Virus record (IMG/VR): IMGVR_UViG_2531839667_000017
Coordinates: 1-41,654 of that record
Reading direction: 5' to 3' (one strand)
Length of the DNA: 41,654 bases
Source: a virus
Lineage: Duplodnaviria > Heunggongvirae > Uroviricota > Caudoviricetes
The notes beneath the pieces were generated by a model. The model did no database searches and had not been told where the DNA came from. It was given only the letters and a program-made list of their open reading frames with translations. Shown one piece after another: positions 29,561 to 31,414 of this stretch; position 1 is the stretch's first letter, and every line of letters begins with the position of its first letter. Position numbers and translations under genes: made by a program.

Positions 29561-29650
29561 TTTATCACACAGAGCAACTTTACCATTTTGATAAATAAAA
29601 CGCAATGAAGATTTATCAAAATGCATATTTATCCATTTGCTAAATAGAGG
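29561..29650. promoter_or_regulatory. OR operator/promoter region (pR and pRM); operator-like 17-mers at 29579-29595, 29612-29628, 29628-29644
   Basis: TTTACCATTTTGATAAA and TTTATCCATTTGCTAAA show dyad symmetry around TTTAYC half-sites; pR candidate on the minus strand has -35 TTGCGT (29600-29605) and -10 TAAAGT (29577-29582). Confidence 0.6.
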
Positions 29651-29662
29651 GAGAATCGTGGG

Positions 29663-30367
29663 ATGGAAAACAAAGATATTCGCAAATCGAATCTGGCGTT
29701 TTTGCTAGATGAGCATAAAAAAATCGCGGGTAACACTAATGCAAGCTTTGCCGATAAGCTTGGAGTTAGCCCTTCTCAACTCACGCAAGTCTCCGGTGAA
29801 AAAAGCACTCGAAACATAGGGGATAAACTAGCAAGAAAATTCGAAGCCGCACTTGGGTTACCTAATGGGTGGCTTGATTTGGTACATGATGTAACACCAA
29901 TTGCATCATGCTCAGATTCTTTAACTTTTGTCGGTCAGGTAAGAAAAGGGTTAGTGCGCGTGGTTGGTGAGGCAATTCTTGGTGTTGATGGTGCCATCGA
30001 GATGACCGAAGAGCGCGATGGGTGGCTCAATATTTATAGCGATGATCCAGATGCCTTTGGTCTTCGTGTGAAAGGAGACAGCATGTGGCCCAGAATAAAA
30101 TCAGGAGAATATGTACTCATTGAGCCTAACACCAAAGTATTCCCGGGGGATGAGGTGTTTGTCAGAACTGTTGAAGGACACAACATGATCAAAGTTCTTG
30201 GCTATGACAGAGATGGAGAATACCAATTTACAAGCATCAACCAGGACCACAGGCCAATAACGTTGCCTTATCATCAAGTAGCAAAGGTGGAGTATGTGGC
30301 TGGTATTCTGAAGCAATCTCGCCATCTGGATGACATCGAGGCAAGGGAGTGGCTGAAAAGTTCGTGA
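29663..30367 (+). CDS. cI: CI repressor (HTH plus S24 LexA-like autopeptidase domain)
   Basis: 234 aa; N-terminal HTH, C-terminal GDSMWP (Ser) and K (Lys) dyad motif. Confidence 0.88.
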   Translation: MENKDIRKSNLAFLLDEHKKIAGNTNASFADKLGVSPSQLTQVSGEKSTRNIGDKLARKFEAALGLPNGWLDLVHDVTPIASCSDSLTFVGQVRKGLVRVVGEAILGVDGAIEMTEERDGWLNIYSDDPDAFGLRVKGDSMWPRIKSGEYVLIEPNTKVFPGDEVFVRTVEGHNMIKVLGYDRDGEYQFTSINQDHRPITLPYHQVAKVEYVAGILKQSRHLDDIEAREWLKSS

Positions 30368-30635
30368 CTTCATCGTCACATAGCTGGTAACCAGTGGCCT
30401 GAAGAGACGTTTGGGTGATGTGATAGAGATCATTATTCAATTCGATTGAGAAAAATCATCATAAGGTTTATATCCATTTATTAGATTTTATGTGTATAAA
30501 TAGTTAAAAATGCACGATGTAGAGATATTTGTGCTTAACATCAATTAATCATTGCTAAATCGTGCTTATTGTTCAGAAATCGCCCAAGTCATATTGAAAA
30601 TCTGTTGGCGAACACCTATATAAGGAGTATAGTTA

Positions 30636-30998
30636 GTGACCCAAAACGTATTGCCAATCAACAAGAGCTTGCATGACCGAGCTGTTGATGAATTTAATCG
30701 TCTGCATGGAACAATGATTGGCGAGATTAGTGCAATGCTGAAAACAGCTAAAGTAGCGCCATTGGTGGATCTTCGTAAGAAAGATCCTACCTTTTCGAAC
30801 GTTGTCGCAGAATTACGGACATTCAGAGACGTATGTAATGCTCTGCTCCCATACTTTCGTGTAGATAAGACCAGCGAAATCGCTGTCATCGATAAGTTAC
30901 TTATACTGGCTAATGACCTGGCTCAAGCCATCGATGCTGACGATCCTGACGCATTGTGCGCAGCAATAGCAGCCCTTGATGTTGAGCCTTACATTTAA
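30636..30998 (+). CDS. hypothetical protein (120 aa) immediately downstream of cI
   Basis: GTG 30636-30638 with AAGGAG SD 8 nt upstream; soluble, helical-looking, no recognised motif. Confidence 0.6.
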   Translation: MTQNVLPINKSLHDRAVDEFNRLHGTMIGEISAMLKTAKVAPLVDLRKKDPTFSNVVAELRTFRDVCNALLPYFRVDKTSEIAVIDKLLILANDLAQAIDADDPDALCAAIAALDVEPYI

Positions 30999-31013
30999 AC
31001 GAGGGGAAAAAAA

Positions 31014-31109
31014 ATGACTAAAGCGTTTGACTATACTGCCGTTAGTAAGCTTTTGGCTGAAATGCGCGGATGTGTAGAGCGCGTTCAAAATCTACGCCGC
31101 GACTTTGAA
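31014..31109 (+). CDS. hypothetical small protein (31 aa)
   Basis: ATG 31014-31016 preceded by GAGGGG; found by reading the sequence. Confidence 0.35.
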
Positions 31110-31164
31110 GCTCACATCAGTCATTCACAAAAAGCGGCTTGATACTTAAGTTAGATGACAGAAC

Positions 31165-31190
31165 CCGGCCTCAGCGCCGGGTTTTCTTTG
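31165..31190 (+). terminator. intrinsic terminator closing the cI-proximal operon
   Basis: CCCGGC-ctcagc-GCCGGG hairpin followed by TTTTCTTT. Confidence 0.7.
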
Positions 31191-31370
31191 CCTCACGATC
31201 CCCACACCTAATAACACCTTAACCAATTGTATTTATTGAAAAATTGATAGATACAACTTTCTAAACCACGAAATTCTGATCCCCCTCAAGTCTCTTCATT
31301 CCTTCTGATAAATTCCCGCAATCAAATAAAAAACCATAATAATCAACAGGATATTTGAAAACCCAAACAA

Positions 31371-31414
31371 TTTATCATTTTGCTATTGCCATCAGTTTAT
31401 CATTTCGATAAAGT
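31371..31414 (+). promoter_or_regulatory. OL/pL (operator TTTATCATTTCGATAAA at 31396-31412; -35 TTGCCA 31386-31391; -10 TAAAGT 31409-31414)
   Basis: Perfect dyad-symmetric 17-mer of the same family as the OR sites overlaps a sigma70-like promoter pointing at nutL and N. Confidence 0.6.

What the first reader, a model, noticed from the sequence alone, without database searches (positions are those of the whole stretch)
29561..31414. Operator family TTTAYCA-N3-TGATAAA at OR and OL, with an extra operator-like site downstream of cI
Seen: dyad-symmetric 17-mers TTTACCATTTTGATAAA (29579-29595), TTTATCCATTTGCTAAA (29628-29644) and TTTATCATTTCGATAAA (31396-31412) overlap candidate pR, pRM and pL elements; the pR and pL candidates share the -10 hexamer TAAAGT. 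A related sequence TTTATATCCATTTATTAGAT lies at 30467-30486 between cI and the downstream cassette. Inference: these are the CI/Cro operators of this immunity type, and the extra site could let CI autoregulate or gate expression of the downstream cassette.
Basis: inference. Interest (0 to 1): 0.45.

Follow-up and report, generated by a model that had tools for sequence, protein, structure and literature searches.

The report
Known H-19B phage operators, rediscovered
The three 17-base dyads are the repressor-binding sites of the already-studied Shiga-toxin phage H-19B immunity type, sitting in a related E. coli prophage, while the "extra" site after the repressor gene is a chance resemblance.

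Summary
The window carries the immunity region of phage H-19B: CI is 233/234 and Cro 75/77 residues identical. OR1, OR3 and OL2 are base-for-base identical to H-19B, and OL1 differs only at a central base. A half-site matrix scores these four 17-mers at 18-22 bits, against 13 bits for the next best site in 41.6 kb. Of 50 window/H-19B differences in OR and OL, only one falls inside them (p = 1e-4). H-19B operators were characterised experimentally (Shi & Friedman 2001), and oR1-3 are annotated in GenBank KU238070, so this part is correct but already known.

The extra site (30467-30486) is not supported. It scores 8.7 bits, rank 23 in the window, and 35% of shuffled spacers do as well. Its second half-site is absent. 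It lies inside a mobile two-gene cassette that is absent from H-19B. That cassette follows at least four other repressor types in other genera, and there the aligned stretch is variable. The cassette has its own conserved promoter-like element and probably also receives read-through from pRM. Interest is low.

The parts
29316..29549 (-). cro (77 aa), H-19B type
   Evidence: 75/77 residues identical to H-19B Cro. It is the ORF listed.
29561..29577 (.). Fourth OR-region site, TTTATCACACAGAGCAA. It has one good half-site and lies between the pR -10 and the cro ribosome-binding site. It is a candidate for the fourth OR operator reported for H-19B.
   Evidence: Half-site TTTATCAC scores 8.8 bits. 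The half-site is conserved in H-19B and O103 RM8385. Review PMC8065619 says H-19B has four OR operators. Assigning this site as the fourth is my inference.
29577..29605 (-). pR: -10 TAAAGT (complement of 29577-29582), 17-nt spacer, -35 TTGCGT (complement of 29600-29605). It drives cro and cII and, downstream of them, the replication genes.
   Evidence: Read from the sequence. The -35 matches only 3 of 6, so the scan did not list it. The layout is the same in H-19B.
29579..29595 (.). OR1, TTTACCATTTTGATAAA. It overlaps the pR -10 and spacer.
   Evidence: 0 mismatches to the consensus. It scores 22.0 bits, the best site in the window. It is identical in H-19B and ST2-8624. KU238070 annotates oR1 at 29581-29597.
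29612..29628 (.). OR2 candidate, TTTATCAAAATGCATAT.
   Evidence: It scores 12.3 bits, all from the left half. A 13-nt perfect inverted repeat links it to OR1 (CATTTTGATAAAT / ATTTATCAAAATG). KU238070 annotates oR2 at 29607-29623. The weak half differs from H-19B at 3 positions.
29628..29644 (.). OR3, TTTATCCATTTGCTAAA. It lies next to the cI start, in the pRM region.
   Evidence: It scores 21.2 bits. It is identical in H-19B. KU238070 annotates oR3 at 29630-29646.
29663..30367 (+). cI repressor (234 aa), H-19B type, with a LexA-like S24 autocleavage domain.
   Evidence: 233/234 identical to H-19B CI. Pfam Peptidase_S24 at 3.8e-16.
30380..30418 (+). Fossil 3' end of a lambda-like cI (IAGNQWPEETFG*). 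It marks the old module joint, and H-19B homology ends at 30421.
   Evidence: Translations. The 21-mer is shared by loci with three repressor types.
30467..30486 (.). The 'extra operator-like site'. It is judged a chance resemblance and not an operator.
   Evidence: 8.7 bits, rank 23 in the window, right half 0.9 bits. 35% of spacer shuffles match or exceed it. The aligned stretch is variable in 9 other cassette copies. Comparable hits occur beside unrelated repressors.
30594..30622 (+). The cassette's own promoter-like element: TTGAAA, 17-nt spacer, TATATA. The -10 overlaps the Shine-Dalgarno AAGGAG at 30622-30627.
   Evidence: Both hexamers are invariant or nearly so, the spacer length is constant and the spacer sequence is variable, in 10 loci from 6 genera. 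Function was not tested.
30636..31142 (+). Two-gene cassette in the 'rex slot': a 120-aa ORF (30636-30998) and a 42-aa ORF (31014-31142), function unknown.
   Evidence: phrog_13858 and phrog_12503, both of unknown function. No Pfam, NCBIfam or PADLOC hit. The model is helical, pLDDT 82, with no fold match. It is absent from phage records and present in 89 complete E. coli genomes.
31161..31190 (+). t_imm-like intrinsic terminator that ends the cI-cassette transcription unit.
   Evidence: A 9-bp G+C-rich hairpin followed by UUUUCUUU, centroid structure -16 kcal/mol (minimum free energy of the 63-nt fold -16.7), z = -2.2. 39 nt are 100% identical to lambda 35788-35826, and the matching stretch is annotated as a terminator in the HK542 and HK244 immunity regions.
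31371..31387 (.). OL2, TTTATCATTTTGCTATT.
   Evidence: It scores 18.1 bits. It is identical in H-19B within a region that is 86% identical overall.
31386..31414 (+). pL: TTGCCA, 17-nt spacer, TAAAGT.
   Evidence: Promoter scan. Both hexamers are conserved in H-19B.
31396..31412 (.). OL1, TTTATCATTTCGATAAA. It overlaps the pL spacer and -10.
   Evidence: It scores 21.8 bits. The only difference from H-19B is the central base at 31405.
31461..31488 (+). nutL-like element: boxA GCTCTTTAA (31461-31469) and a boxB hairpin GTCGA-ACAC-TCGAC (31475-31488).
   Evidence: Read from the sequence. The hairpin was picked up by the scan. The boxA/boxB assignment is from general knowledge of lambdoid nut sites and was not tested.
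31605..31877 (+). N antiterminator (90 aa), a different allele from H-19B N (a 384-base CDS in AF034975.3).
   Evidence: Pfam N_peptide at 3.4e-32. H-19B homology stops at 31433, apart from a 62-nt patch at 31812-31873. The H-19B N CDS spans 384 bases in the record.

Best explanation
This is the immunity region of an H-19B-type lambdoid prophage, inverted relative to the usual lambda map. The gene order is cII, cro, pR/OR/pRM, cI, a two-gene cassette, t_imm, OL/pL, nutL, N.

The 17-bp dyads TTTATCA-N3-TGATAAA are the CI and Cro operators. OR1 covers the pR -10 and spacer. OR2 is one strong half-site plus one weak one. OR3 sits beside the cI start, where pRM must lie. OL1 covers the pL spacer and -10, and OL2 abuts the pL -35.

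In a lysogen, CI dimers on OR1/OR2 and OL1/OL2 shut off pR and pL. Occupation of OR3 at high CI would limit pRM. After RecA-stimulated autocleavage of CI, Cro binds the same sites. These steps are inferred from homology with H-19B and lambda. They are not shown here.

The sequence at 30467-30486 is not part of this system. It is an A+T-rich stretch in the leader of a mobile two-gene cassette that sits where lambda has rexAB. The cassette is most likely expressed in lysogens in two ways, neither of which needs CI to bind in the spacer. One is read-through from pRM, since no terminator lies between cI and the cassette and t_imm follows it. The other is its own conserved TTGAAA-17-TATATA element.
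For: Module identity:
- 28841-30421 is 96% identical to H-19B, and 31163-31433 is 86% identical.
- CI is 233/234 identical and Cro 75/77.
- OR1, OR3 and OL2 are identical to H-19B. OL1 differs at one central base.

Operator statistics:
- The four strong sites score 18-22 bits, against 13.0 for the next best site in the window.
- Only 1 of 50 window/H-19B differences in OR and OL falls in their 68 nt, Fisher p = 1.1e-4.
- pL is TTGCCA-17-TAAAGT.

Prior knowledge:
- oR1-3 are annotated in KU238070.
- Reviews cite Shi & Friedman 2001 and Neely & Friedman 1998 for H-19B operators and repressor binding.

Against the extra site:
- It scores 8.7 bits and ranks 23rd in the window; 35% of shuffled spacers do as well.
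- It lies in DNA absent from H-19B.
- The cassette follows four other repressor types: 255 aa, 241/243 aa, 219 aa and 237 aa. Their alignable similarity to this CI is at most about 27% identity (E about 5e-06 for the 241/243-aa type) and otherwise confined to the C-terminal protease domain. None shares the H-19B N-terminal DNA-binding domain.
- The aligned stretch is variable across cassette copies.
- In seven other loci the local OR shares words with the local OL, significantly in six (L011 p = 0.055), but never significantly with the cassette spacer. In the window the spacer gives 9 shared words against a null mean of 3.75, p = 0.12.

Cassette expression:
- No stable hairpin lies between cI and the cassette (z = -0.33).
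- The t_imm hairpin is confirmed.
Against: - No binding experiment was or could be done here. The original H-19B operator paper could not be read, so the exact published boundaries and numbering, including which site is the fourth OR operator, are inferred.
- The GenBank oR1-3 annotation is shifted 2 nt from the best dyad register.
- OR2 and the fourth site are only half-operators by sequence.
- No conserved third OL operator was found.
- A weak CI contact at 30469-30476 (half-site TATATCCA, 7.8 bits) cannot be excluded by sequence alone.
- The cassette promoter-like -10 overlaps the Shine-Dalgarno sequence, so a transcript started there would lack it. The promoter assignment is therefore uncertain.
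Confidence: 0.9

Rival explanations
1. The sequence at 30467-30486 is a genuine weak or auxiliary CI operator. Through it CI would autoregulate, block read-through from pRM, or otherwise gate the downstream cassette.
For: A 9-mer, TATCCATTT, is shared with OR3, and the left half-site TATATCCA scores 7.8 bits. The spacer shares slightly more 10-mers with OR than shuffles do: 9 against a mean of 3.75, although 12% of shuffles reach 9. It lies about 20 nt upstream of a TATAAA (30495-30500) that is conserved in some cassette copies.
Against: - The right half-site is absent (0.9 bits). The total of 8.7 bits ranks 23rd in the window, and 35% of spacer shuffles match or exceed it.
- The site lies in cassette DNA that is absent from H-19B.
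- The homologous stretch is variable in copies beside unrelated repressors. The Citrobacter copies read TATCATTTTG there, equally operator-like, although those phages have a different repressor.
- The H-19B matrix gives hits of 7-10 bits in spacers of loci that lack this CI.
- No other locus has a local-operator match in its cassette spacer.
- The invariant promoter-like element lies 125 bp downstream, out of reach of a site at this position.
Confidence: 0.04
2. The stretch around 30440-30510 belongs to a second, clade-specific regulatory region of the cassette that has nothing to do with CI. It could be an upstream promoter or UP-like A+T tract, or the binding site of a host nucleoid protein or a cassette-encoded factor.
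For: The blocks GATTGA-AAAATCATCATAA-GT and GATTTTA-GTGTATAAATA flanking the site are conserved among the E. coli, Enterobacter and Citrobacter copies, whatever repressor is upstream. The region is 29% G+C.
Against: These blocks are not conserved in the Hafnia, Serratia and Pantoea copies. No consensus promoter was called there. There are no expression data.
Confidence: 0.25
3. The 17-mers at OR and OL are not repressor operators. They would be chance A+T-rich dyads or sites for another factor.
For: No binding data were generated here, and the motif is A+T-rich.
Against: - The four sites stand 5-9 bits above everything else in 41.6 kb.
- They sit on pR and pL and beside the cI start, where pRM is expected.
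- They are spared by substitutions (p = 1e-4).
- They are annotated as operators in KU238070.
- H-19B operators are described as experimentally characterised.
Confidence: 0.02

Closest known systems
Phage H-19B immunity region, OR/OL with cI and cro (GenBank AF034975; Neely & Friedman 1998; Shi & Friedman 2001). The same immunity is found in BP-4795, vB_EcoS_ST2-8624 and many Stx1a phages.
   Same: CI is 233/234 and Cro 75/77 identical. OR1, OR3, OL2 and the pL hexamers are identical, and OL1 differs at one central base. The cro-OR-cI-...-OL-N order is the same, and the fossil lambda-cI 3' end follows cI in both.
   Different: - The weak half of OR2 and the OR1-OR2 spacer differ.
- The two genes between cI and OL are replaced. 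In ST2-8624 and BP-4795 they are annotated as a putative HTH regulator and a HigB-family toxin; the H-19B record itself annotates no gene there. Here they are the 120-aa and 42-aa ORFs.
- N is a different allele.
- The replication genes differ: a DnaB-like helicase here, lambda-type O and P in H-19B.
Phage lambda OR/OL, cI-rexA-rexB-t_imm operon
   Same: Both have divergent pR and pRM with 17-bp dyad operators, OL on pL, lysogen-expressed accessory genes between cI and OL, and an identical t_imm hairpin (39 nt at 100%). This is what the region works like.
   Different: The operator sequence is unrelated (from memory, the lambda half-site consensus is TATCACCGC). The CI N-terminal domain is unrelated. 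Only two clear OL sites were found here. OR has a fourth site according to review PMC8065619. The cassette proteins are unrelated to RexA and RexB.
Phage 933W / phi24B immunity
   Same: CI residues 81-234 are 92-94% identical to the C-terminal domain of the 933W-type CI. 933W is reported to have only two OL operators, as found here.
   Different: The N-terminal DNA-binding domain is unrelated, so operator specificity and immunity differ.

Membership tests
H-19B immunity group (imm H-19B repressor-operator system) | CI repressor with the H-19B N-terminal DNA-binding domain | tested here: met
   233/234 identical. The single change, N122K, lies outside the N-terminal domain.
H-19B immunity group (imm H-19B repressor-operator system) | Cognate Cro | tested here: met
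   75/77 identical.
H-19B immunity group (imm H-19B repressor-operator system) | Same operator sequences at OR, between divergent cro and cI | tested here: met
   OR1 and OR3 are identical. The strong half-site of OR2 is identical and its weak half has 3 changes.
H-19B immunity group (imm H-19B repressor-operator system) | Same operator sequences at OL, on pL | tested here: met
   OL2 is identical. OL1 has one central-base change. The pL -35 and -10 are identical.
H-19B immunity group (imm H-19B repressor-operator system) | Homoimmunity: repressor binding and repression demonstrated | not testable with these tools
   This needs a superinfection-immunity test or footprinting. It is reported for H-19B itself in papers that I could only see cited.
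CI operator (claim for 30467-30486) | Two half-sites in dyad symmetry at the operator spacing | tested here: not met
   The left half scores 7.8 bits and the right half 0.9 bits. There are 5 of 14 mismatches to the consensus.
CI operator (claim for 30467-30486) | Match clearly better than the background of the same genome | tested here: not met
   Rank 23 in the window. 35% of spacer shuffles match or exceed it. Equal or better hits occur in loci that lack this CI.
CI operator (claim for 30467-30486) | Co-inheritance with the repressor, or conservation | tested here: not met
   The site lies in cassette DNA absent from H-19B. The aligned stretch is variable across cassette copies beside four other repressor types.
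CI operator (claim for 30467-30486) | Position overlapping a promoter that it could control | tested here: inconclusive
   No consensus promoter overlaps it. The only invariant promoter-like element lies at 30594-30622.
Lambda RexAB-type exclusion module (for the cassette) | Homology to RexA or RexB, or to any catalogued defence protein | tested here: not met
   No Pfam, NCBIfam or PADLOC hit. PHROG families 13858 and 12503 are of unknown function. There is no fold match. Only the genomic slot and t_imm are shared with lambda.

The most novel reading that the evidence does not exclude
The two-gene cassette (120-aa helical protein plus 42-aa peptide; phrog_13858 and phrog_12503) is the only uncharacterised thing here. 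It has its own invariant promoter-like element overlapping its Shine-Dalgarno sequence. It hops between the 'rex slots' of lambdoid prophages with at least five different repressors in six genera. It could be an undescribed lysogen-expressed exclusion, defence or fitness module, expressed independently of CI operators. The narrower novel reading of the finding as given is that 30467-30486 is a real auxiliary CI site. I put that at about 0.04.
Probability: 0.3. Interest if true: 0.4.

Novelty: already known. Interest (0 to 1): 0.1.

Why it matters
It matters little beyond correct annotation. The analysis identifies this prophage as homoimmune with H-19B-type Stx phages, which bears on superinfection and co-lysogeny in STEC. 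It fixes the operator map for this variant: OR1, OR2, OR3 and a fourth half-site, plus OL1 and OL2. It also removes a spurious regulatory link between CI and the downstream cassette. The side result may be useful to people cataloguing prophage accessory or defence genes. It is a small mobile cassette with its own promoter-like element that occupies the rex slot behind many different repressors, next to a fossil lambda-cI 3' end marking the recombination joint.

Tried and rejected
- Papers. The primary H-19B operator papers are not held (Neely & Friedman 1998, Shi & Friedman 2001, Tyler 2004). Full-text searches for the operator sequences themselves found nothing. I therefore rely on reviews and the GenBank annotation.\n- Footprinting with diverged relatives of the CI N-terminal domain. 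None exists in the phage collection. Hits are either at least 95% identical or match only the C-terminal domain.\n- A third OL operator. The candidates 31339-31355 (10.7 bits) and the half-site at 31305-31312 are not conserved in H-19B, so I rejected them. The TTATCA copy downstream of the pL -10 (31415-31424) is also not conserved.\n- A structured RNA or ribozyme in the cI-cassette joint, prompted by the CUGANGA-like motif. There is no Rfam hit and no unusual folding. The motif is in fact the coding remnant QWPEETFG* of a lambda-like cI.\n- Function of the cassette. Pfam, NCBIfam, PADLOC and PHROGs gave nothing informative. The AlphaFold model (pLDDT 82) searched with Foldseek against the PDB gave only generic four-helix-bundle matches with E above 0.6.\n- The 13-bit site at 28890-28906, at the cII 3' end. 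It drops to 9.1 bits in H-19B, so I treat it as chance.
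Full report
**What is there.** The region is a lambdoid immunity region, inverted relative to the usual lambda map.
- cII (28881-29177) and cro (29316-29549) are on the minus strand.
- A 113-bp control region follows.
- cI lies at 29663-30367 on the plus strand and has a Peptidase_S24 domain.
- Two small ORFs follow, at 30636-30998 and 31014-31142.
- A G+C-rich hairpin terminator lies at about 31161-31190.
- A second control region follows, and then an N antiterminator gene (31605-31877; Pfam N_peptide, 3e-32).

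**Check of the observation.** The three 17-mers are at the coordinates given. They have 0, 2 and 1 mismatches to TTTAYCA-N3-TGRTAAA, and nothing else in 41.6 kb has fewer than 3.

I built a half-site weight matrix from OR1, OR3, OL1 and OL2. Because the matrix was trained on these four sites, their own scores are partly circular. It scores them at 22.0, 21.2, 21.8 and 18.1 bits, and the next best site in the window reaches 13.0.

The shared -10 hexamer TAAAGT is correct. pL reads TTGCCA-17-TAAAGT at 31386-31414. pR reads TTGCGT-17-TAAAGT on the minus strand, the complement of 29577-29605.

- OL2, TTTATCATTTTGCTATT, lies at 31371-31387.
- OR2 lies at 29612-29628. It has a perfect half-site that forms a 13-nt perfect inverted repeat with OR1 and a weak second half.
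- A fourth half-site, TTTATCAC, lies at 29561-29568, between the pR -10 and the cro ribosome-binding site.

**Identity.** The region 28841-30421 is 96% identical to phage H-19B (AF034975.3), and 31163-31433 is 86% identical. CI is 233/234 identical, with the single change outside the DNA-binding domain, and Cro is 75/77 identical. OR1, OR3, OL2 and the pL hexamers are identical to H-19B, and OL1 differs only at a central base.

Comparing the window with H-19B over OR (113 nt) and the OL region (234 nt) gives 50 differences. Only one falls within the 68 nt of the four strong operators (Fisher one-sided p = 1.1e-4). This footprint does not depend on how the motif was defined.

**Prior knowledge.**
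- GenBank KU238070 (vB_EcoS_ST2-8624, same immunity) annotates oR1, oR2 and oR3. In window coordinates these are 29581-29597, 29607-29623 and 29630-29646.
- PMC1151598 refers to operator sequences 'known to bind' the H-19B cI homologue.
- I could not read the primary papers. Assigning 29561-29577 as the fourth site is therefore my inference.
- About 35 phage records carry a CI at least 95% identical.

The operator part of the finding is therefore correct and already known.

**The extra site.** The best 17-mer in 30467-30486 is TATATCCATTTATTAGA (30469-30485). It has 5 of 14 consensus mismatches and scores 8.7 bits (left half 7.8, right half 0.9), which ranks 23rd in the window. The 268-bp spacer is 33% G+C. 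In 35% of its dinucleotide-preserving shuffles, a site at least as good appears.

The site also lies beyond the end of H-19B homology at 30421. It is inside a 740-bp insert (30422-31162) that is absent from H-19B and from every phage record. The insert is present, nearly identical, in 89 complete E. coli genomes, for example O103 RM8385, where it has the same cI and the same 90-aa N.

**The cassette travels independently of the repressor.** Homologues of the 120-aa protein, always followed by the 42-aa ORF, lie directly downstream of four other repressor types.
- A 255-aa repressor in an Enterobacter locus and in L006. L006 carries the 120-aa protein allele that its sources name for Hafnia.
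- A 241/243-aa repressor in Hafnia-allele loci L007 and L008.
- 219-aa and 237-aa repressors in the three loci that carry the Citrobacter-named allele (L011-L013).

The alignable similarity of these repressors to this CI is at most about 27% identity (E about 5e-06 for the 241/243-aa type). Otherwise it is confined to the C-terminal protease domain, and none shares the H-19B N-terminal DNA-binding domain. In Serratia and Pantoea the cassette lies elsewhere in prophages.

In the alignment of ten upstream spacers, the stretch homologous to the 'extra site' is variable.
- Window: TATCCATTTATTAGA.
- Enterobacter: TGTTCATTCTACCGA.
- Citrobacter-type: TATCATTTTGTCCGA.

The Citrobacter-type version is just as operator-like, although those phages use a different repressor.

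Two controls point the same way. The H-19B matrix gives hits of 7-10 bits in cassette spacers of loci without this CI. In seven loci with other repressors, the local OR shares 10-mers with the local OL, significantly in six (L011 p = 0.055), which serves as a positive control. None of the seven shares them significantly with the cassette spacer. The window's own spacer is not significant either, at p = 0.12.

I conclude that the extra site is a chance resemblance in A+T-rich leader DNA.

**How the cassette is probably expressed.** Across the ten spacers the invariant feature is ATTG(A/T)AAA, then 17 variable nucleotides, then (C/T)ATATAAGGAGTAT..GTGACCCA. This is the pattern expected of a sigma-70 promoter. 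Here it is TTGAAA at 30594-30599 and TATATA at 30617-30622, 125 bp downstream of the 'extra site'.

The -10 overlaps the Shine-Dalgarno sequence, so a transcript started there would lack it. That leaves the assignment uncertain.

There is no stable hairpin between cI and the cassette (z = -0.33). A t_imm hairpin follows the cassette, and 39 nt of it are identical to lambda. Read-through from pRM, as for lambda rexAB, is therefore the likely lysogenic route. Neither route requires CI to bind in the spacer. All of this is inference.

**Cassette function.** It is unknown.
- The proteins fall in PHROG families 13858 and 12503, both unannotated, with no Pfam, NCBIfam or PADLOC match.
- The family is small and restricted to Enterobacterales.
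- The 120-aa protein is modelled as a helical bundle (pLDDT 82) with no significant PDB match.

**Side observations.**
- The 51 nt after the cI stop translate to LHRHIAGNQWPEETFG*. This ends like a lambda-type CI; compare VVASQWPEETFG* in locus L013.
- The 21-mer encoding that C-terminus occurs at or after the cI end in loci with three repressor types. It is a fossil of the recombination joint.
- H-19B homology resumes at t_imm and stops again at 31433, immediately after pL. The immunity module is thus bounded by sharp mosaic joints.

**Verdict.** The sequences are all present, and three of the four are far beyond chance. Interest is low.

Noticed in passing
window 30368-30418: The 51 nt after the H-19B-type cI stop codon translate to LHRHIAGNQWPEETFG*. 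This is a fossil of the C-terminus of a lambda-like CI. The 21-mer GTGGCCTGAWGAGRYNTTTGG also follows or ends cI in H-19B, Enterobacter L004 (twice), L012 and L013, so it marks a recurrent recombination joint.
   Followed up: yes
window 30594-30638: TTGAAA, a 17-nt spacer and TATATA are invariant across 10 cassette copies from 6 genera while the spacer sequence varies. The -10 overlaps the Shine-Dalgarno AAGGAG of the 120-aa ORF, which has a GTG start. A transcript from this promoter would therefore lack the ribosome-binding site.
   Followed up: partly
window 30636-31142; loci L004-L013: A two-gene cassette (120-aa helical protein plus 42-aa peptide; phrog_13858 and phrog_12503) occupies the slot between cI and OL behind at least five different repressor types. 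It is seen in E. coli and Enterobacter and in loci carrying the Hafnia- and Citrobacter-named protein alleles. It lies near tail genes in Serratia and Pantoea prophages. Its function is unknown, and it has no defence-database or fold match.
   Followed up: partly
window 30545-30559: TTAATCATTGCTAAA pairs two operator-like half-sites (7.6 and 11.1 bits) around a 1-nt centre instead of 3 nt. A near-identical sequence is kept in cassette copies beside unrelated repressors, with a 1-nt insertion in L004 and TAAAATCATTGCTAAA in L011-L013. It is therefore not an H-19B CI site.
   Followed up: partly
window 29663-30367 (CI residues 81-234): The C-terminal two thirds of CI are 92-94% identical to the CI of 933W/phi24B-type Stx2 phages, while the N-terminal DNA-binding domain is unrelated. 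This is mosaicism at the level of domains within the repressor gene.
   Followed up: no
window 31433-31877: Homology to H-19B stops 19 nt after the pL -10. The nutL-like boxA (31461-31469), the boxB hairpin (31475-31488) and the 90-aa N are a different allele from H-19B N (a 384-base CDS).
   Followed up: no
window 31300-31360: No conserved third OL operator was found. The half-site CTGATAAA (31305-31312) and the weak dyad at 31339-31355 both differ in H-19B. OL may have only two sites, as reported for 933W.
   Followed up: partly
window 28890-28906: CATATCAATTTGCTTAA at the 3' end of cII is the best non-operator match in the window at 13.0 bits. It scores 9.1 bits in H-19B, so it is probably chance.
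   Followed up: partly
window 33271-34053: An IS21-family IstB-like helper ATPase gene lies on the minus strand within the early-left (pL) region. In matching E. coli genomes it is annotated as IS100-type. The prophage may therefore be disrupted.
   Followed up: no
L001/L002 3089-4146 (H-19B, ST2-8624): In the reference H-19B-type phages the same slot holds a different pair of genes. RefSeq annotates them as a putative HTH transcriptional regulator and a HigB-family toxin. The rex slot of this immunity type is thus a swap site for two-gene modules.
   Followed up: no
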